Source: an uncultured Candidatus Saccharibacteria bacterium
GTDB taxonomy: Bacteria; Patescibacteriota; Dojkabacteria; SC72
Assembly (NCBI GenBank): GCA_964560525.1
Contig: CAZLLO010000002.1
Coordinates: 18,221 to 82,220, forward strand
Length of the DNA stretch: 64,000 bases
Reading direction: 5' to 3'
Shown: positions 5,744-40,372 of the stretch, piece after piece
How the letters are laid out: every line of letters begins with the position of its first letter
Numbering within the stretch: position 1 is the stretch's first letter
Notes under the pieces: generated by a model
Databases searched by the model: none
What the model saw: the letters and a program-made list of their open reading frames with translations, nothing else
What the model was told of the DNA's origin: nothing
Position numbers and translations under genes: made by a program

Positions 5744-7879
5744 ATGGAAAAAACAAAAAGCAAATACAAAAACCTTTTAATTGTTGAGTCTCCTGCGAAA
5801 GCAAAGACTATTAACAAGTATCTAGGTACAGATTACAAAGTCATGGCTACTGTTGGCCATATTATCGACCTCCCAAAGAGTAAGTTGGGAGTAGATGTTG
5901 AGCATAACTACGAGCCTTTGTTTGAAACGATATATGGTAAGGGCAAAATTATAACTGACCTCAAGCGAGCAGTACCTAAAGATGGAAATGTTTTCTTAGC
6001 AATGGACCCTGATCGCGAAGGAGAAGCCATAGCATGGCATGTAAACAGTGTATTAAAGGCTAAGAATATTAAGAGAGTAATGTTCAATGAAATAACTAAG
6101 GATGCAATTTTAGAAGCCGTTCAACATCCAACAGATATTGATGAAAATCTTGTAGAAGCACAGAAAGCAAGAAGAATACTAGATAGATTGGTAGGATACA
6201 AGCTTTCAGAGTTACTTTGGAAAAAGATATGGTATGGACTTTCCGCAGGTAGAGTACAGTCTGTTGCATTGAGATTAGTTGTTGAAAGAGAAGAGGAAAG
6301 AGAGGCTTTTAAAGCTGAGGAATATTGGGATTTTGGAGTAGAGGTTAAGGATGAAAGTGGCAATGTATTAAATGCAAAATTAGCTCAGAAAGATGGAAAG
6401 AAATATATTCCTACAAACAAAGATGAGGTAGAGGGAATTGAAAAAACACTTGGAGCTTCTGATTACATTGTTAAAGATGTAGTTGTTAAAAAGGTTAAGA
6501 AGCATCCATATCCTCCATTTACTACATCTACACTTCAACAAGCTGCAAATAATGTTTTGGGATATTCATCTAAGCGAACCATGGCTATTGCTCAGATCTT
6601 GTATCAGGCTGGTTACATTACATATATGAGAACTGACTCATTCAACTTGAGTGCTAAGGCTGTTGATTCAATTAGAGAATTGATAAACAATAGGTATGGT
6701 AAAGAATATTTACCTGCTACTCCAAACTACTACAAAACCAGAAGCAAGGGTGCTCAGGAAGCTCACGAAGCTATCCGACCTTCAGATATTAACGTTACTA
6801 GAGAGAAGATTGAGGCTCAGTTTGGTAGCGCAGAGGCAAAACTGTACGACTTAATATGGAAGCGAGCAGTTTCTTGTCAGATGACAGACAAGCAGGCTGA
6901 GATTCTAACGGTTTCCATTGTTAACAAGGATGTTAAGAAACCTGAATATGTATTTACATTGGGTGGTGAGATGACTTTGTTTGATGGTTTTAGAAAAGTT
7001 TTAGGTACTGGTAAGGTTGAAGATGATTTACAAGAGATTTCTAAGATTGAGAAGGGTGATACTTTGAAATGGAAGAAGTTTGTTAAGGAGCAGAAATATA
7101 CTCAACCTCCTGCTAGATATACTGATGCATCATTGGTTAAGAAGCTCGAGGCTTTGGAGATTGGTAGACCTTCTACATATGCAACCATAATCTCGACTAT
7201 TGAGGCGAGAGGATATATTACTAAGGAAGCTAAGGCTTTGATTCCTACTGATGTGGGTAGAATTGTTACTAATTTCCTTAGAGACAACTTTAAGAGGTTG
7301 GTAGATTACAAATATACGGCTAAGGTTGAGGCTGAATTGGATGGTATTGCTGCAGGTAAGATGAAGTATGCTCCAGTTATGGATGAGCAATACAAGCCTT
7401 TGGTAGAAGAGATTGCTAAGGCTGAGAAGGATGTTAACAAGGAAGACGTAGTCATACTTGGTAAGGCTGAGGACAAGTGTCCTGAGTGTGGTGGGGAGAT
7501 GATCATTAGAATTGGTAGATATGGTAAATTCCTTAGTTGTGCTAAATTCCCTGAGTGTAAGGGTATGAAGGATTTGTCTGGGAATGAAGAGAGTTTGGAT
7601 TTTAACAAATATCTTAGACCTGAGAAGTGTCCTAAGTGTGGTGGGGAATTGGTGTTAAAGAATAGCAAATATGGTAAGTTCTGGGCTTGTAAGGACTATC
7701 CTAAGTGTAAGGGTACAGTTCCTCTTCTTTTACAAGAGAAGTGTCCTGAGTGTAATCATCCTTTGGTTGAAAGAAGGAGTAAGTGGGGTAGAACATTTAC
7801 TGGATGTAGTAACTATCCTGAGTGTAAGTATATAAAGAAGACGTTTAAGGCTAAGAAGAAAAAGAAGAGTTCAGAGTAA
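5744..7879 (+). CDS. topA: DNA topoisomerase I
   Basis: Toprim start (LLIVESPAKAKTI), catalytic-Tyr region (GYITYMRTDS), and three C-terminal C4 zinc ribbons (CPECGGEM..., CPKCGGEL..., CPECNHPL...). Confidence 0.95.
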   Translation: MEKTKSKYKNLLIVESPAKAKTINKYLGTDYKVMATVGHIIDLPKSKLGVDVEHNYEPLFETIYGKGKIITDLKRAVPKDGNVFLAMDPDREGEAIAWHVNSVLKAKNIKRVMFNEITKDAILEAVQHPTDIDENLVEAQKARRILDRLVGYKLSELLWKKIWYGLSAGRVQSVALRLVVEREEEREAFKAEEYWDFGVEVKDESGNVLNAKLAQKDGKKYIPTNKDEVEGIEKTLGASDYIVKDVVVKKVKKHPYPPFTTSTLQQAANNVLGYSSKRTMAIAQILYQAGYITYMRTDSFNLSAKAVDSIRELINNRYGKEYLPATPNYYKTRSKGAQEAHEAIRPSDINVTREKIEAQFGSAEAKLYDLIWKRAVSCQMTDKQAEILTVSIVNKDVKKPEYVFTLGGEMTLFDGFRKVLGTGKVEDDLQEISKIEKGDTLKWKKFVKEQKYTQPPARYTDASLVKKLEALEIGRPSTYATIISTIEARGYITKEAKALIPTDVGRIVTNFLRDNFKRLVDYKYTAKVEAELDGIAAGKMKYAPVMDEQYKPLVEEIAKAEKDVNKEDVVILGKAEDKCPECGGEMIIRIGRYGKFLSCAKFPECKGMKDLSGNEESLDFNKYLRPEKCPKCGGELVLKNSKYGKFWACKDYPKCKGTVPLLLQEKCPECNHPLVERRSKWGRTFTGCSNYPECKYIKKTFKAKKKKKSSE

Positions 7880-7907
7880 TTTCATATATATCTTCTAAGA
7901 TATATAC

Positions 7908-8540
7908 ATGCTTCCAAGAGAAAAATATTTAGAAAGGGGTATAGATAGCCTCAGTGATATGGAGTTAATAGCCATAATTATTGGTTCTGGTATTAAGGGT
8001 CATGATTTTATGTCCGTTTCCAGATCTGTGGTATATCAAATACGAAAATCTATAAAGAAGAATGGGAATGTAGATATTAAGGATATTGTTGATATTCTTG
8101 GTATTGGTTTAGCTACAGCTATGAAGATTCTCTCTGGTATTGAATTGGGTAGGAGGTTGTATGACCTAGGTAACAAGGAGAAGATTTCTGTTAGAAATGC
8201 ACAAGAGGCTTACTATTTGTTAAAGGATATGCGAAACAAGAAACAGGAATATATTGTGGGATTGTTTCTTAATTCTAGATTTGAGTTACTAGAACAACGT
8301 ACATTGGCTATTGGTACAGTGGATGGGGCTGGGTTACTTCCGAGGGATGTTATTATTCCTGCATTAGAACTTAATGCTAGTTCTGTTATTATGGCACATA
8401 ACCATCCTTCTGGGGATTCTTTACCTAGTAATGAGGATATTGATGTTACACAGAGGGTAGGGAAAGCGTTAGATTTAGTAGGGATTAAACTACTAGATCA
8501 TATGGTTATAGGGAAGGATGATTGGAAAAGTATTTGTTAA
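7908..8540 (+). CDS. radC: RadC-family JAB/MPN domain protein
   Basis: N-terminal HhH-like region and C-terminal JAMM motif HNHPSGDSLPSNED. Confidence 0.85.
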   Translation: MLPREKYLERGIDSLSDMELIAIIIGSGIKGHDFMSVSRSVVYQIRKSIKKNGNVDIKDIVDILGIGLATAMKILSGIELGRRLYDLGNKEKISVRNAQEAYYLLKDMRNKKQEYIVGLFLNSRFELLEQRTLAIGTVDGAGLLPRDVIIPALELNASSVIMAHNHPSGDSLPSNEDIDVTQRVGKALDLVGIKLLDHMVIGKDDWKSIC

Positions 8541-35268: not shown

Positions 35269-35306
35269 TAGGTTTTTTTTGGTATAATCCCTATGTTCAT
35301 ATATAT

Positions 35307-35393
35307 GGAGAGGTGTCAGAGTGGTCGAATGAGACGGTCTTGAAAACCGTTATATGGGTAACCATATCGGGGGTTCGAATCCCTTCCTCTCCG
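35307..35393 (+). tRNA. tRNA-Ser (anticodon TGA)
   Basis: GGAGAGG/CCTCTCC acceptor stem, anticodon stem ACGGT/ACCGT with loop CTTGAAA (anticodon TGA), long variable arm (TATATGG...CCATATC), T-loop GGGGGTTCGAATCCCTT, discriminator G. No encoded CCA. Confidence 0.85.
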
Positions 35394-35429
35394 GATTGAA
35401 CTTGAATCGTTATTATTTAGCTATTTGAT

Positions 35430-35990
35430 ATGATAAAAAGTTTAGCAGAAATCCAAACCCCAGATGTACGGACCAAACTGTCTCTCTTAGATCTTCATCA
35501 GGCAATTGAGTGGAGAAAAGGATTTGAATTCATTACAGATGATGTTTTGTTAAGAAATATCTCATATCAACTCCAATATCTAGATTTCTTAATTGAACTA
35601 CATAATAAATATCAAGTATATGGAGTAATTGATTCACTTCTTTGTAAAAATATCATTGTGAATATCAATTCAATTGTGGAGGCATGTCTCGACTATACAG
35701 CAAGACAAGCTATGAAAAAATCTAACAACTTACATTGCAATGAGCAGATTGCATATGTGGACTTAATAAATATGGCATGTGAGGATTTCGGAATTATTAG
35801 TACCACATTAGTTAAAATGTTACATCAGTTAAGGAAACAAAGAAACTTTCAACATTTTCAGAGTCAAGAGGAAAGAGAGTTGGATAAATACAAGCCAAAG
35901 GATGCCAATTACGCGATAGAAATTCTTAAAATATTTAGAGATCAGTTGAAAGAATACTATAATAGATATTTGCAAGAGGAGAAGGAATAG
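35430..35990 (+). CDS. Hypothetical protein (first gene after tRNA-Ser)
   Basis: A 186-aa soluble alpha-helical ORF with no recognisable motif. Confidence 0.4.
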   Translation: MIKSLAEIQTPDVRTKLSLLDLHQAIEWRKGFEFITDDVLLRNISYQLQYLDFLIELHNKYQVYGVIDSLLCKNIIVNINSIVEACLDYTARQAMKKSNNLHCNEQIAYVDLINMACEDFGIISTTLVKMLHQLRKQRNFQHFQSQEERELDKYKPKDANYAIEILKIFRDQLKEYYNRYLQEEKE

Positions 35991-36036
35991 CAAACCTTAA
36001 AACATAATCGGGAAGGAAGAATTTGGATTATATATA

Positions 36037-36234
36037 TTAATCTTGACAGTTAGTATAAGGATAAGAACAGTTATGAGAGCTACTACCCGAGAAGAATATA
36101 ATATGAATAATCAAACTCAAGGCAAGTATTAAGAATAGGAATTGGATATACTCTTTAGCACTGGAGGGTTTCTTTTCTGCTACTAGAAAAACTAGAATAG
36201 TGACGACAGGAATAATAAAAAGATATTCAACCAT
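36037..36234 (-). CDS. Small 2-TM membrane protein
   Basis: A 65-aa ORF with two hydrophobic helices; weak support. Confidence 0.3.
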   Translation of the reverse strand: MVEYLFIIPVVTILVFLVAEKKPSSAKEYIQFLFLILALSLIIHIIFFSGSSSHNCSYPYTNCQD

Positions 36235-36255
36235 ATTATTTTTTTAGTACTAAAT

Positions 36256-37116
36256 TTACATAGCAACTATCTTCTTATCCAATAACCATCTTCCATTAGT
36301 TACTTTCCATTCATTGTAGATGCCGCTAATTGATTGCATGGACGGATCGTAGAAGTATGTAATTAGTCTAAAGTCAGATTTGCTATCATCAGTGAAAGCC
36401 ATATATAAATCCATATTTCCTCGGGTTAATTTATCTTCTGATATAAAAGTTTTAAAATCAAAATATAGCCTAGAATAGGTATCTTTGGTTAGTTCATAAG
36501 CGACAATATTGTAAGATGATCCTACATAATCGAGAGTACTAAAGAATAAGTATTTATTTTCTAGGTTTTCATTCTCGTATATTATTAATTGAATTTCTTG
36601 CTTACATCCTGCGTTATTGTCATAATCCTCGCATACAACATCGGATCTTAAGTTATCTGTCAAAGTAGAGTTGTTTAACTTCAAACTACAAGATGGCCAG
36701 TAGGGTGGGATTGATAGAGAATCTTTATCTATTTCACGGCATTCTAAATATAAATAGTCACTATCCCCAATATCAAATTTGTCTTTTACGATACTTCCCG
36801 TTTGAATATCATATTGTGGGGTATCTACTGCCTTTTCAATTTTAATATATCCATTGGGGTTCCACTTATCATTTGTAAATATGTCAGCTCCTTCATAATA
36901 TGTCTTATCTTCAGGATCAAGGAGACTGATATCTGCAGTACCTAAAACCAGTGGCTTAGAGGTTGATTTTGTTGGAAACAATATATCCGCATAATATGAT
37001 CCTATTGCAAATGTCATAATCATACATGGAAGAGAAATAGCAATACCCTTCATTATCCTTTTTACACTAACTTCTTTAGATAAGAATGGGTTACTACTCA
37101 TGCCAAAATAGTACAC
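36256..37116 (-). CDS. Secreted/membrane-anchored hypothetical protein
   Basis: N-terminal hydrophobic segment (IAISLPCMIMTFAIG) then a Cys-containing beta-rich domain. Confidence 0.4.
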   Translation of the reverse strand: MYYFGMSSNPFLSKEVSVKRIMKGIAISLPCMIMTFAIGSYYADILFPTKSTSKPLVLGTADISLLDPEDKTYYEGADIFTNDKWNPNGYIKIEKAVDTPQYDIQTGSIVKDKFDIGDSDYLYLECREIDKDSLSIPPYWPSCSLKLNNSTLTDNLRSDVVCEDYDNNAGCKQEIQLIIYENENLENKYLFFSTLDYVGSSYNIVAYELTKDTYSRLYFDFKTFISEDKLTRGNMDLYMAFTDDSKSDFRLITYFYDPSMQSISGIYNEWKVTNGRWLLDKKIVAM

Positions 37117-37247
37117 AAAAAGTTAAGAATTATCAATTCATATCCAATAATTATGTATATTGTTAATCTGTGGCTCGAGGTTTCGCTTTTTGTTATCTAT
37201 AGGATTCCACTTTAATTAAGGTTTTGATATAATCAACAAGCAAATAT

Positions 37248-37667
37248 ATGGTATTGATTAGAGCTATGGGGCAGAAAGAAAAACACTTAGAAATGATCCA
37301 AGAGATCATAAAAAGGATTGCGAATAATTCTTTTTTTATAAAAGGATGGGCTATTACCCTTGTTGCAGGATTGTTAGCATTACTTTCTAAAGATCCATCA
37401 TTTGCTTATGCAGTGATTATTTTCATTCCTGTGGCTTTTCTTTGGTGCTTGGATGCATACTTTATATCGCAAGAGCGATTATTTCGAGATTTATATGAAT
37501 CGGTGCGAAAACTCAAGGATGAAGAAATAGATTACTCTATGGATGTTACCCAATTTCGCAAAAAGAAAAGAAATTCTTGGCTTTGCTCCTTCTTTTCACA
37601 CACACTTATTCCTTTCTACTTATCCCTAATTGCAACAATATATTTCATATTGTTAATTTTATTTTAA
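37248..37667 (+). CDS. Small membrane protein: N-terminal amphipathic helix, 2 TM hairpin, cytoplasmic linker, C-terminal TM (SLATT-like 2TM+1TM topology)
   Basis: IQEIIKRIANNSFFIKGWAITLVAGLLALL / AYAVIIFIPVAFLWCLDAYF hairpin, charged linker of about 45 aa, C-terminal LIPFYLSLIATIYFILLILF. Sits immediately upstream of the TIR gene with an 18-nt gap. Confidence 0.5.
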   Translation: MVLIRAMGQKEKHLEMIQEIIKRIANNSFFIKGWAITLVAGLLALLSKDPSFAYAVIIFIPVAFLWCLDAYFISQERLFRDLYESVRKLKDEEIDYSMDVTQFRKKKRNSWLCSFFSHTLIPFYLSLIATIYFILLILF

Positions 37668-37684
37668 TTTTTATATAAAAAGAT

Positions 37685-38182
37685 ATGTCAACAAAAAGAC
37701 AAGTTTTTTATAGTTTTCATTATAAACCTGATAACTGGAGGGCCGCTCAGGTTCGAAATATTGGAGCAATAGAAGGAAACAAACCTGCGCCTGATAATGA
37801 TTGGGAGGATATTGCCAGTGAGGGAGATGATGCGATAAAAGAGTGGATTGATGATCAACTTAAATATAGATCTTGCACCATTGTGCTAGTTGGGAGTAAT
37901 ACAGCAAATAGAAAGTGGATTAATTATGAAATAATAAAATCCTGGAATGAAGAAATGGGAGTGGTAGGGATATATATTCATGGATTGAAGAACAAAGATG
38001 GATATATTAGTGAAAAAGGAGAAAATCCTTTCGATTACATTGGTTATGGAGATGAAAAATTATCTTCTGTTGTAAAATGTTATAACCCTCAGGGTACTAA
38101 TAGCCAGGAAAGATATGATTGGATAAGCAGGAACATCTCAGTTATCGCAGAGCAGGCTGTTAATATTAGGAAAAGCAATTAA
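37685..38182 (+). CDS. TIR-like domain protein (ThsB-like, DUF1863-type)
   Basis: QVFYSFHYKPDNWRAAQVRN N-terminal block, VLVGSNTANRKWINYEIIKS (a Glu at the position of the catalytic Glu of ThsB-type TIRs), GIYIHGLKNKDGYISEKGENPFDYIGY C-terminal block. The protein is 165 aa. Confidence 0.65.
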   Translation: MSTKRQVFYSFHYKPDNWRAAQVRNIGAIEGNKPAPDNDWEDIASEGDDAIKEWIDDQLKYRSCTIVLVGSNTANRKWINYEIIKSWNEEMGVVGIYIHGLKNKDGYISEKGENPFDYIGYGDEKLSSVVKCYNPQGTNSQERYDWISRNISVIAEQAVNIRKSN

Positions 38183-38248
38183 TAAAAAAGAAAAGTATAT
38201 AATAGGTGTTGCTCAGTTGTGGCTTTTTATTTTATTTTACAATAAACC

Positions 38249-38788
38249 ATGTTAACCATAACCTACTTTGTACATGGTACAACTACAGATAATGAACAAC
38301 ACATATCCAGTGGTTGGAAAGATGTAGATATATCTAAAAAAGGTATACAACAATCCATAGAACTACCCACCTTAAATACCACACCCTTTGATACAGTATT
38401 CTGTAGTGATCTATTAAGAGCCATACATTCCACAAACCTATCATTTAAAGATAAATATCCAATAGTTATAGATAAAAGATTAAGAGAATGTAACTATGGT
38501 GATTACAATGGTAAACCATCGGATATGGTAGAACCATTACAAGAACAAATGATATATACAAGATTCCCTAATGGAGAATCATATGAAGATGTAAAGGAAA
38601 GAATAGGGTTATTCTTAAACGATATTAAAAGTAAATACGATGGTAAACATATAGCTATAGTTGGACATAAAGCACCCCAATTAGCATTAGATGTATTACT
38701 AAAGAATATGACATGGGAAGAAGCATTTAAAAACGATTGGAGAAAGATAGGGAAGTGGGAAGCAGGGTGGGTGTATACAATGAACTAA
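38249..38788 (+). CDS. Histidine phosphatase superfamily (PGAM-like) protein with a non-canonical Val in place of the RHG Arg
   Basis: YFVHGTTTDN (HG...N of RHGxTxxN), second His block IAIVGHKAPQLAL. The conserved Arg preceding the catalytic His is replaced by Val. Confidence 0.6.
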   Translation: MLTITYFVHGTTTDNEQHISSGWKDVDISKKGIQQSIELPTLNTTPFDTVFCSDLLRAIHSTNLSFKDKYPIVIDKRLRECNYGDYNGKPSDMVEPLQEQMIYTRFPNGESYEDVKERIGLFLNDIKSKYDGKHIAIVGHKAPQLALDVLLKNMTWEEAFKNDWRKIGKWEAGWVYTMN

Positions 38789-39032
38789 TTAAAAACTAGA
38801 AATCTTTTCTAAGGTAATATATAATATAAATACAAAGATCTAGCGTCCGAATTGTCACCGCATGGTGCGCGTTCCTAGACAAGCACTAGGATAGGCGTTA
38901 GATCGAATTTTTATATATCCATTCTTCTCCAATCTTATTTCTTATAACTTGCCTGTAAACTTTACTATCGAATGGACACATTTGATCTTGTCCCTCTGGG
39001 GTTAACACAATAACACAACTTAACAAAGAACT

Positions 39033-39071
39033 ACGGCATCCGTAAACAAACACGGGTGCCGTTTTTCTTTT
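39033..39071 (+). terminator. Intrinsic terminator, copy 1 of a duplicated ~60-bp element
   Basis: ACGGCATCCGT-AAACAAAC-ACGGGTGCCGT (11-bp stem with one G-U) followed by TTTTTCTTTT. Confidence 0.6.
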
Positions 39072-39198
39072 AACAGCCATTGTACCACGTAGACCCCTAT
39101 AGTAATTATTAGACGATTATTATATAATTTTCTCGTCTGTACAAAGACATAAGTTCTTTTTCAATTCATAAAACTCAAGAGAGAGAGGGTTGTTACAA

Positions 39199-39576
39199 AT
39201 GAAAAAATGGATGGAATTAAGTGAGAAGGTAATTGGATTCCTGGCTTCGGTTAAGCAAGGAATTACTTTCTCAACCTCAAGTCGAACAATTGCTACTCTG
39301 GAGGGTGGAATAAAGGTTACTTTCTTGGAAGAAGTTTACGGGGAAGAAGGACGTCTTTCCGTGAAATTCCCCTCTATGACAAGAGGAAATCTTCCTGTGG
39401 AAGTACCAATTCTTGAAAGAGCTATCAGTAGCGCAATTGAGACTTTACCAGTCTGTTCTTTTTGGGAAAAGGGTTCGCCATATGCATTTACACTTATATG
39501 GGATGATGACCCACTCAAAGCGTTTGCGGAGATAGGCGAGAAGAAAGGAGTCCTCGACTTAAAGAGTTTATTGTAA
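39199..39576 (+). CDS. Hypothetical protein flanked by duplicated terminators
   Basis: A 126-aa ORF with RBS GAGAGGG 8 nt upstream of ATG 39199 (the ORF track's 39190 TTG is less likely). No recognisable motifs. Confidence 0.45.
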   Translation: MKKWMELSEKVIGFLASVKQGITFSTSSRTIATLEGGIKVTFLEEVYGEEGRLSVKFPSMTRGNLPVEVPILERAISSAIETLPVCSFWEKGSPYAFTLIWDDDPLKAFAEIGEKKGVLDLKSLL

Positions 39577-39589
39577 CTGATTAAAGAAC

Positions 39590-39628
39590 TACGGCATCCG
39601 TAAACAAACACGGGTGCCGTTTTTCTTT
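39590..39628 (+). terminator. Intrinsic terminator, copy 2 of the duplicated element (2 mismatches to copy 1 over ~60 bp)
   Basis: Same hairpin ACGGCATCCGT-AAACAAAC-ACGGGTGCCGT plus TTTTTCTTTT, located 14 nt after the stop of the 39199 gene. Confidence 0.6.
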
Positions 39629-39727
39629 TACCCGCCATACCCCATATATATATCTTCCTTGTTATTCTAACCATTTTAGAATATACTCACTACTGTCCGT
39701 ATTAAAATTAAAAAGAAAATATATACA

Positions 39728-40372
39728 ATGAGAGACTTTAATAGATCAGGTGGAAACAGTAGAGGCGGAGGAAGAAGCTTCGGTGGAGGTGGTAGAGGTA
39801 GAAGTTTTGGAGGAAGAAGCGAAAGACCAGAAATGTTCGATGCAGTATGCGATCAATGTGGAAAAGACTGTAGAGTCCCATTTAGACCATCTGGAGACAA
39901 ACCAATATACTGTAGCGAATGTTTTGAATCAAAGAGAGAAGACGGTGGTAGAGATGACAGAGGAGGAAGATTTGAAAGCAGAGATAGAAGACCAAGCTTT
40001 GATAGAGGTGGATTCAGGGATAGAGAAGAGAAGCAAATGTTTACAGCAGTATGTGATCAATGTGGACAGGAATGTGAAGTTCCATTCAAACCATCAAGTA
40101 ACAAACCAATATTCTGTAGCAAATGTTTCGAAGGTAAAGAAGGAAACAAGAGTAATGGTAGAGGTGGATGCAACTGTGATTGTAAAGCAGAGATTGAAGC
40201 ATTAAACAAGAAATTGGACAAGATTATTAGTATTCTTGAACCTATTAAAGAGGTAAAAGCTACTAAGAAAGCTATAGAAAAGGAAGTTGCTGAAGTAGTT
40301 AAGGAAGTAAAGAAAACAGCAAAGAAAGTAGCTAAAAAGGCAAAAGAAGTTAAGGAAGTAATTACTGAATAA
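39728..40372 (+). CDS. RGG-rich tandem zinc-ribbon nucleic-acid-binding protein with Lys-rich histone-H1-like tail
   Basis: N-terminal RGG/GGRS repeats; two copies of MF(D/T)AVCDQCG(K/Q)(D/E)C(R/E)VPF(R/K)PS(G/S)(D/N)KPI(Y/F)CS(E/K)CF(E)(S/G)K (CxxC...CxxC ribbons); C-terminal KKLDKIISILEPIKEVKATKKAIEKEVAEVVKEVKKTAKKVAKKAKEVKEV. Confidence 0.55.
   Translation: MRDFNRSGGNSRGGGRSFGGGGRGRSFGGRSERPEMFDAVCDQCGKDCRVPFRPSGDKPIYCSECFESKREDGGRDDRGGRFESRDRRPSFDRGGFRDREEKQMFTAVCDQCGQECEVPFKPSSNKPIFCSKCFEGKEGNKSNGRGGCNCDCKAEIEALNKKLDKIISILEPIKEVKATKKAIEKEVAEVVKEVKKTAKKVAKKAKEVKEVITE

What the first reader, a model, noticed from the sequence alone, without database searches (positions are those of the whole stretch)
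37248..38788. ThsB-like TIR protein flanked by a small 3-TM membrane protein and a histidine-phosphatase-family protein, with no ThsA: candidate minimal TIR-based defence module
ORF 37685..38182 has the DUF1863/ThsB-type TIR signature. It starts with VFYSFHY, has a central VLVGSNTANRKWINYEIIKS whose Glu aligns with the catalytic Glu of ThsB-type NADase TIRs, and ends with GENPFDYIGY. Known Thoeris systems pair ThsB with a SIR2-SLOG or Macro-TM ThsA. Here the only neighbours on the same strand are a 139-aa membrane protein upstream (18-nt gap; amphipathic helix, TM hairpin, cytosolic linker, third TM) and a PGAM-family histidine phosphatase downstream (66-nt gap) with a non-canonical active-site Arg-to-Val. 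The membrane protein topology recalls SLATT-type or 2TM/1TM partners of TIR proteins. A TIR signal-generator plus a tiny membrane-disrupting effector, and possibly a signal-degrading or processing phosphatase, would be a compact and undescribed variant.
Basis: partly seen in the sequence, partly recalled or inferred. Interest (0 to 1): 0.82.

Follow-up and report, generated by a model that had tools for sequence, protein, structure and literature searches.

The report
Type V Thoeris pair (thsF–thsB)
The small membrane protein and the TIR protein are a two-gene anti-phage system of a kind already described and tested (Type V Thoeris, ThsF plus ThsB), here in a candidate-phyla bacterium, and the neighbouring phosphatase is an ordinary conserved gene of that lineage and not part of the system.

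Summary
Three co-oriented ORFs lie at the stated coordinates: a 3-TM protein, a ThsB-type TIR (PF08937, E=4e-28) and a His_Phos_1 phosphatase with VHG in place of RHG.

The TIR plus small membrane effector is a real, conserved two-gene module, but it is not undescribed. ORF1 is a homologue (41% identity, E=3e-36) of the effector encoded next to a TIR that is 251/251 identical to the experimentally validated Type V Thoeris TIR of B. thuringiensis DAR 81934 (Yirmiya et al., bioRxiv Dec 2025). Both effectors match PADLOC candidate PDC-M50A (2023). ORF2 is 65% identical to a TIR that the paper lists under Type V.

Adjacency holds in both directions:
- 63 of 80 genomes with a ThsF relative have a TIR directly beside it.
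- 62 of 80 metagenome loci with a close ORF2 relative have thsF directly beside it.

The phosphatase never co-occurs with the pair (0/88 and 0/80 loci). It is a syntenic backbone gene of Dojkabacteria, and its VHG motif is invariant across the subfamily. The Thoeris pair is cargo in a variable slot beside tRNA-Ser.

Inferred mechanism: phage-triggered ThsB makes a cADPR isomer (3'cADPR in the validated system), which activates oligomeric ThsF to damage the membrane.

Verdict: new member of a known kind, low interest.

The parts
37266..37667 (+). thsF: Type V Thoeris effector, a small 3-TM membrane protein (133 aa from the likely start; the ORF opens at 37248, giving 139 aa)
   Evidence: PADLOC PDC-M50A PDLC04686, E=5.4e-46, full length. 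41% identity, E=3e-36, to P0228, the gene directly downstream of the validated B. thuringiensis DAR 81934 Type V TIR. P0228 hits the same PADLOC model at 1.8e-48. ORF1 carries every family-invariant residue: H13, R23, F29, G33, W34, D69, E76, R77. AF2 mean pLDDT 94.1; three hydrophobic helices.
37685..38182 (+). thsB: TIR-domain signal-generating protein (165 aa), catalytic Glu82
   Evidence: PF08937, 4.2e-28. PADLOC ThsB 2.8e-68 and PDC-M50B 5e-64. 65% identity over 155 aa to IMG 2595431376, listed 'DUF2270 - Type V' in Table S1 of the reference paper. Full-length alignment to solved ThsB structures 8wcf, 9b7d and 6lhy, with the catalytic Glu conserved.
37224..37252 (+). weak sigma-70-like site upstream of thsF (TTGATA-17-TATGGT)
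   Evidence: 9 of 12 matches. The number of such sites in the region is no higher than in shuffles, so this is a position only, not evidence. Its -10 element overlaps the 37248 ATG, which is compatible with the 37266 start.

Best explanation
The locus is a two-gene Type V Thoeris anti-phage system, thsF (37266-37667) followed by thsB (37685-38182). It is carried as cargo in a variable slot next to tRNA-Ser in a Candidatus Dojkabacteria-like (Patescibacteria) genome.

Proposed mechanism:
1. On phage infection the ThsB TIR domain (catalytic Glu82) converts NAD+ into a cyclic ADP-ribose isomer. In the validated Type V system this is 3'cADPR.
2. The signal binds ThsF, a 3-TM protein predicted in the reference study to form a ring-shaped homo-oligomer with positively charged pockets between protomers on the cytoplasmic side.
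3. Ligand binding makes ThsF damage the membrane, so the infected cell stops growing or dies before the phage completes replication.

Shown here: homology of both proteins to the validated pair, intact conserved and catalytic residues, and conserved adjacency in both directions.

Taken from the paper: the defence phenotype, 3'cADPR production and 3'cADPR-dependent toxicity for the B. thuringiensis system.

Inferred: that this particular TIR clade makes the same signal, that ThsF acts by breaching the membrane, and that the system is active in its CPR host.

The downstream phosphatase is a neighbouring backbone gene, possibly co-transcribed, and not a system component.
For: Link to the validated system:
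- L095:3229-3987 is 251/251 identical to the validated Type V TIR (IMG 2624526259). The next gene, P0228 (the effector, IMG 2624526260 in Table S2), is 41% identical to ORF1 at E=3e-36.
- ORF1 and P0228 both hit PADLOC PDC-M50A at about 1e-46 to 1e-48.
- ORF2 is 56-65% identical to three TIRs labelled Type V in Table S1.
- Every TIR class the paper files under Type V has close relatives beside ThsF-family genes in my loci.

Conserved adjacency:
- Forward: 63 of 80 genome loci with a ThsF relative have a TIR gene directly adjacent on the same strand, and 4 more have one within 1.5 kb.
- Reverse: 62 of 80 metagenome loci with ORF2 relatives have thsF directly adjacent, and 10 more have it nearby.

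Integrity and effector role:
- The catalytic Glu is aligned to BcThsB.
- All ThsF-invariant residues are present in ORF1.
- A SLOG-ThsF fusion (P0095) supports the membrane domain as a ligand-controlled effector module.

Published mechanism: defence, 3'cADPR and the AF3 heptamer with positive pockets.

Local context: G+C dips to 0.32-0.33 across 35-39 kb, against 0.38-0.39 upstream. The island sits beside tRNA-Ser.
Against: - No experiment exists on this locus or on any ThsB of this clade paired with ThsF. The two validated Type V TIRs belong to other TIR clusters.
- The same TIR cluster also contains Type XI (HIT-hydrolase) TIRs. I found no signal reported for Type XI in the sections I read.
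- Membrane disruption by ThsF is predicted from AF3 models, not measured.
- I could not model the oligomer.
- The Pfam label used in the paper (PF10028/DUF2270) does not detect ORF1 at E<=1 or the validated ThsF at E<=10.
Confidence: 0.88

Rival explanations
1. One reading: a new three-gene minimal TIR module in which the VHG histidine phosphatase processes or degrades the TIR-made signal.
For: ORF3 lies 66 nt downstream on the same strand. No terminator-like hairpin lies between thsB and ORF3; the first one on the + strand is at 39033. Co-transcription is therefore possible. The active-site Arg-to-Val change is real.
Against: No ORF3-like or His_Phos_1-subfamily gene occurs in the 88 ThsF loci or in the 80 loci with close ORF2 relatives. 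ORF3 is 88-93% identical to the gene at the same syntenic position (401-aa gene, ABC ATPase, slot, phosphatase, glycosyltransferase) in Dojkabacteria contigs that lack the Thoeris pair. Homologues in Nanosyncoccaceae and other contigs sit in unrelated contexts. VHG is invariant across the subfamily. Histidine phosphatases act on phosphomonoesters, whereas cADPR isomers hold a pyrophosphate and glycosidic links (established chemistry; my knowledge).
Confidence: 0.03
2. The TIR is itself the effector, an NAD+-depleting NADase, and the membrane protein is a sensor or anchor and not a signal-activated effector.
For: Some bacterial TIRs act as NAD+-depleting effectors, as stated in the paper. No biochemistry exists for this TIR clade.
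Against: In the validated Type V system the TIR expressed alone makes 3'cADPR only on infection. Exogenous 3'cADPR is toxic only to cells carrying the system, and the 3'cADPR sponge Tad1 reduces defence. ThsF-family domains also occur fused to SLOG ligand sensors. ThsF pairs with at least five unrelated TIR clusters, which is the pattern expected of an interchangeable effector.
Confidence: 0.05
3. The pair is an inactive remnant in a reduced CPR genome.
For: The neighbouring DUF3800 gene in the same variable region is truncated, so decay does occur here. No expression data exist.
Against: Both ORFs are full length relative to their homologues. The catalytic Glu and all family-invariant ThsF residues are intact. 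The identical pair is present in two independent sequencing runs.
Confidence: 0.04

Closest known systems
Type V Thoeris (ThsB + ThsF), B. thuringiensis DAR 81934 and Bacillus sp. 1NLA3E (Yirmiya et al., bioRxiv 10.64898/2025.12.03.692087)
   Same: Two-gene operon of a TIR protein and a roughly 135-140-aa 3-TM effector. ORF1 is homologous to the validated ThsF (41% identity, E=3e-36). ORF2's nearest catalogued relatives are listed as Type V.
   Different: The gene order here is thsF then thsB, which is the majority order among relatives (44 of 63) but the reverse of the two validated Bacillus operons. The TIR belongs to a different cluster (2661146773) from the two validated TIRs. The host is a CPR bacterium. 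Signal and phenotype are untested.
PADLOC-DB v2.0.0 candidate system PDC-M50 (A + B)
   Same: ORF1 matches all four PDC-M50A models (best 5.4e-46). ORF2 matches PDC-M50B (5e-64). The validated ThsF matches the same A models.
   Different: PDC-M50 is only a computational candidate name. No paper in the searchable library mentions it.
Type I Thoeris ThsB (B. cereus MSX-D12; PDB 6lhy/9b7d)
   Same: Same TIR subfamily (PF08937). 38% identity over the TIR core. The catalytic Glu and the GxNPFDYxGY segment are conserved.
   Different: The partner is SIR2-SLOG ThsA, an NAD+-depleting enzyme, not a membrane protein. No ThsA is present here.
Type II Thoeris (TM + Macro effector) and Type VII Thoeris (SLATT effector ThsH)
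   Same: TIR-made signal activates a membrane-spanning cell-killing effector.
   Different: ORF1 has no Macro domain and no SLATT match. The signals differ: His-ADPR for Type II and canonical cADPR for Type VII.
Pfam PF10028 (DUF2270)
   Same: The reference paper uses this label for ThsF. 8 of 112 family members give weak hits (best 1.4e-5).
   Different: ORF1 gives no PF10028 hit at E<=1, and the validated ThsF P0228 gives none at E<=10. The ThsF family is not captured by the current Pfam model.

Membership tests
Type V Thoeris (ThsB + ThsF) | A TIR-domain ThsB protein with the catalytic glutamate | tested here: met
   PF08937 4.2e-28; PADLOC ThsB 2.8e-68; Glu82 aligned to the Glu of BcThsB 'RYEIMKS'.
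Type V Thoeris (ThsB + ThsF) | An effector homologous to experimentally validated ThsF | tested here: met
   The TIR in L095 is 251/251 identical to validated IMG 2624526259. The adjacent gene P0228 against ORF1 gives 41% identity over 129 aa, E=3e-36. Both hit PDLC04686.
Type V Thoeris (ThsB + ThsF) | Effector with three membrane-spanning helices | tested here: met
   Hydropathy segments at about 22-69 (a hairpin) and 112-133 in 133-aa numbering. AF2 helices 9-48, 52-88 and 120-138 in 139-aa numbering, pLDDT 94.
Type V Thoeris (ThsB + ThsF) | TIR and effector adjacent and co-oriented, with the pairing conserved across genomes | tested here: met
   17-nt gap. 63 of 80 ThsF loci have an adjacent TIR. 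62 of 80 ORF2-relative loci have an adjacent thsF.
Type V Thoeris (ThsB + ThsF) | Protection against phage | not testable with these tools
   Shown only for the two Bacillus systems in the paper.
Type V Thoeris (ThsB + ThsF) | ThsB makes 3'cADPR on infection and ThsF responds to it | not testable with these tools
   Shown for B. thuringiensis DAR 81934. The second validated system was not activated by 3'cADPR. This TIR clade is untested.
Type V Thoeris (ThsB + ThsF) | ThsF forms a ring-shaped homo-oligomer with positive inter-protomer pockets | not tested
   Only monomer prediction was available. The conserved R23, K32, R77, R80 and H13 lie on the predicted cytoplasmic helices, which is compatible but not a test.
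PADLOC PDC-M50 | Adjacent genes matching the PDC-M50A and PDC-M50B HMMs | tested here: met
   A: 5.4e-46; B: 5e-64.
Pfam DUF2270 (PF10028) | Match to PF10028 at or above the gathering score (25 bits) | tested here: not met
   No hit for ORF1 at E<=1. No hit for validated ThsF P0228 at E<=10. 8 of 112 family members hit weakly, best 1.4e-5. I do not file ORF1 under PF10028. A remote relationship is neither shown nor excluded.
Type I / Type II Thoeris | A ThsA (SIR2-SLOG) or a TM-Macro effector next to ThsB | tested here: not met
   Neighbours have no such domains. None was listed in whole-window scans, which show only the top 25 families.
SLATT effectors (Type VII Thoeris / CBASS) | Match to SLATT Pfam models | tested here: not met
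   None for ORF1. One of 39 homologues hit SLATT_fungal at E=0.14.
Histidine phosphatase superfamily branch 1 (ORF3) | Pfam PF00300 match and the catalytic R-H-G...R...E...H set | tested here: inconclusive
   PF00300 at 6.9e-27. H9, R57, E80 and H140 are conserved, but the first Arg is Val in every subfamily member examined. The fold membership is clear; the catalytic competence is unknown.

The most novel reading that the evidence does not exclude
This ThsB clade shares TIR cluster 2661146773 with Type XI TIRs, and no member of it paired with ThsF has been assayed. It may make a signal other than 3'cADPR, with its ThsF tuned to that signal. Type V Thoeris would then be a multi-signal family in which the same small membrane effector has been re-tuned to different ADPR-derived ligands. 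A weaker add-on is that the possibly co-transcribed VHG phosphatase modulates the system in Dojkabacteria.
Probability: 0.15. Interest if true: 0.45.

Novelty: new member of a known kind. Interest (0 to 1): 0.2.

Why it matters
Mostly as a correct annotation. It shows that a validated signalling defence system (Type V Thoeris) is present in ultra-small CPR bacteria: Dojkabacteria here, and Saccharibacteria, Daviesbacteria, Roizmanbacteria and Gracilibacteria among the related loci. It is also present in DPANN-type archaea.

It also exposes a practical annotation gap. The ThsF family has at least 5,850 representatives at 50% identity, yet the Pfam model it is named after does not detect it, and NCBI calls its members 'hypothetical'. 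Pfam-based pipelines will therefore report orphan ThsB genes 'without an effector', which is exactly how this finding arose. PADLOC's PDC-M50A models do detect it.

Tried and rejected
- Pfam on ORF1 and its homologues. Only sub-threshold PF10028 and DUF3278 hits came back, so Pfam could not settle membership. The link was made through the validated locus instead.
- tblastn of the validated B. thuringiensis TIR against plasmids. Relatives were found on B. cereus and Priestia plasmids, but none had an adjacent ThsF, so this was uninformative.
- SLATT relationship: rejected.
- Phosphatase as a system component: rejected on co-occurrence and synteny.
- AF2 of the neighbouring 186-aa ORF (35430-35990, which has an R-x6-H motif). 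The model was poor, mean pLDDT 49.5, so no fold search was attempted.
- Literature search for 'PDC-M50': no paper found.

Full report
**Observation.**
The three co-oriented ORFs exist as stated.
- ORF2 (37685-38182) is a ThsB-type TIR. It hits PF08937 at E=4.2e-28 and PADLOC ThsB at 2.8e-68. It aligns over its full length with the solved ThsB structures 8wcf, 9b7d and 6lhy, and Glu82 aligns with the conserved Glu of BcThsB.
- ORF1 (37248-37667) has no Pfam family. It has a hydrophobic hairpin, a K/R-rich linker and a C-terminal hydrophobic helix, and models at mean pLDDT 94.1 as helices 9-48, 52-88 and 120-138.
- ORF3 (38249-38788) is a His_Phos_1 protein (6.9e-27) with V-H-G in place of R-H-G.
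- Corrections: the ORF1-ORF2 gap is 17 nt. ORF1 most likely starts at 37266 (133 aa), as in the database record and in its homologues.

**What the pair is.**
PADLOC-DB already holds both genes as a candidate system. ORF1 matches PDC-M50A at 5.4e-46 and ORF2 matches PDC-M50B at 5e-64.

The preprint by Yirmiya et al. (bioRxiv 10.64898/2025.12.03.692087, Dec 2025) defines Type V Thoeris as ThsB plus ThsF. ThsF is a 3-TM effector which the authors label DUF2270/PF10028. They show that two Bacillus systems defend B. subtilis. They also show that the B. thuringiensis DAR 81934 system signals through 3'cADPR, and that AF3 models ThsF as a ring homo-oligomer with positively charged inter-protomer pockets.

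Neither ORF1 nor its 62 first-pass homologues carry a Pfam hit, so I tested the link directly:
- The Exiguobacterium ORF1 homologue led to B. cereus-group proteins.
- In contig FNYB01000013.1 the gene at L095:3229-3987 is 251/251 identical to the validated TIR sequence printed in Table S1 (IMG 2624526259).
- The next gene, P0228 (141 aa), corresponds to the validated effector, which carries the consecutive IMG id 2624526260 in Table S2.
- P0228 is 41% identical to ORF1 over 129 residues, E=3e-36, and hits the same PADLOC model at 1.8e-48.

ORF1 is therefore a ThsF.

ORF2 is 65%, 57% and 56% identical to three TIRs that Table S1 lists as 'DUF2270 - Type V' in TIR cluster 2661146773. Relatives of all the other TIR classes the paper files under Type V lie beside ThsF-family genes in my loci.

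The PF10028 label is loose. The current model detects neither ORF1 (E<=1) nor the validated ThsF (E<=10), and reaches only 8 of 112 family members weakly.

**Conservation of the pairing.**
The ThsF family is large: 5,850 representatives at 50% identity with E<=1e-3, and relatives in at least 576 species-level genomes across many phyla, including CPR lineages and archaea.
- Forward: in 80 genome loci, a TIR gene is directly adjacent on the same strand in 63 (44 downstream, as here, and 19 upstream), and within 1.5 kb in 4 more. Of the 11 without a TIR, at least three (L049, L067, L069) are truncated at the gene or contig end.
- Reverse: of 80 metagenome loci encoding 65-80%-identical relatives of ORF2, 62 have thsF directly adjacent (56 upstream, as here) and 10 more have it nearby. 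Four lack it despite having room.
- A SLOG-ThsF fusion (P0095) supports the membrane domain as a ligand-controlled effector module.

**The phosphatase.**
- No ORF3-like gene occurs in any of the 88 ThsF loci or the 80 ORF2-relative loci.
- ORF3 has thousands of close homologues, mostly in Patescibacteria, and its 90% cluster is annotated Candidatus Dojkabacteria.
- In three Dojkabacteria contigs the backbone is conserved: a 401-aa gene (62-64% identity), an ABC ATPase (56-58%), the phosphatase (88-93%) and a glycosyltransferase (66%). The space around tRNA-Ser(tga) there holds a DUF5677 or DUF3800 gene instead of the Thoeris pair.
- Homologues elsewhere sit in unrelated contexts.
- Val8 is invariant and His9 nearly so in 17 homologues of 64-90% identity. 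R57, E80 and H140 are conserved.

The phosphatase is thus a backbone gene. The thsF-thsB pair, together with two unannotated ORFs (35430-35990 and 36256-37116), is cargo in a variable slot. This fits the lower G+C across this region. No terminator-like site lies between thsB and ORF3, so read-through transcription is possible, but that does not make ORF3 a component.

**Wider context.**
The rest of the window is housekeeping (MreB, topoisomerase I, CysRS, S2, EF-Ts, RRF, DprA, PBPs). No SIR2/SLOG/Macro gene was listed. The other PADLOC matches are most likely generic domain-level hits to core genes.

**Mechanism.**
- Shown here: homology, integrity of conserved residues, and conserved pairing.
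- Shown in the paper for a homologous system: infection-dependent 3'cADPR synthesis by ThsB alone, 3'cADPR-specific toxicity, and loss of defence with the Tad1 sponge.
- Inferred: this TIR clade makes the same or a related cADPR isomer. The signal binds conserved cytoplasmic basic residues of ThsF (R23, K32, R77, R80, H13). Oligomeric ThsF then compromises the membrane.
- Caveats: the second validated Type V system did not respond to 3'cADPR. This TIR cluster is shared with Type XI.

**Novelty and score.**
The system type is known, experimentally validated, and was previously catalogued as a candidate. This locus is a new member, in a CPR host, with a TIR clade not yet assayed. Interest is low at 0.2.

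Noticed in passing
window 38837-38908 (+); remnant 38913-39098 (-): A full-length, above-threshold match to the Rfam DUF3800-IX RNA (RF02968, 56.6 bits against a gathering score of 36.8, E=1e-10) lies 49 nt after the phosphatase. It is preceded by the best promoter-like site in the region (38797-38825) and followed by a terminator hairpin. In syntenic Dojkabacteria contigs the same RNA directly abuts the 3' end of a convergent DUF3800 gene (L101 7590-7660 against gene 7665-8291; L102 6210-6280 against gene 6283-6912). In the window only a C-terminal remnant of the DUF3800 gene survives, while the RNA is intact.
   Followed up: partly
window 39017-39080 and 39575-39638: A 64-nt direct repeat (92% identity), each copy containing the same 11-bp-stem terminator-like hairpin followed by a T-run. 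The two copies flank ORF 39190-39576 (128 aa, no family). This may be a duplicated terminator or element end; its origin is unknown.
   Followed up: no
window 38249-38788: The phosphatase belongs to a His_Phos_1 subfamily in which the catalytic-motif Arg is invariably Val (FVHGTTxDNE). The subfamily is widespread in Patescibacteria and also annotated in a DPANN archaeon. This gene is 88-93% identical to its Dojkabacteria orthologues, while flanking backbone genes are only 56-66% identical. This points to unusually strong conservation or recent exchange.
   Followed up: partly
window 35306-37116: A variable slot lies beside tRNA-Ser(tga) at 35306-35394. It holds two ORFs with no family hits: 35430-35990 (+, 186 aa, all-helical, with an R-x6-H motif 'RKQRNFQH') and 36256-37116 (-, 286 aa). 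Relatives hold a DUF5677 or DUF3800 gene in this slot instead. These ORFs could be further defence cargo.
   Followed up: partly
P0095, P0164 (protein representatives); L068:4164-4937: The ThsF-like membrane domain also occurs as a C-terminal fusion to a SLOG (LD_cluster2) domain (P0095) and to an 8xMP membrane domain (P0164). A separate SLOG-family (LD_cluster3) gene was counted once among the upstream and once among the downstream neighbours of ThsF genes; I think the upstream one is the Chitinophaga dinghuensis gene L068:4164-4937, judging from its sequence only. Some variants may therefore sense the ligand through SLOG.
   Followed up: no
L108-L111, L113, L127, L131, L152: In several metagenome loci with close ORF2 relatives, a further gene of about 160-230 codons lies between thsF and thsB. 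Its identity was not examined; it might be a second TIR.
   Followed up: no
ThsF family as a whole: The validated ThsF and its relatives are annotated 'hypothetical protein' in NCBI and escape the current Pfam PF10028 model. Type V Thoeris will therefore be missed by Pfam-based annotation. PADLOC's PDC-M50A models detect it.
   Followed up: yes
window 39728-40372: A 214-aa protein with two treble-clef zinc fingers (PF23477, 1e-32), separated by R/G/D-rich low-complexity segments and followed by a K/E-rich tail. Its function is unknown.
   Followed up: no
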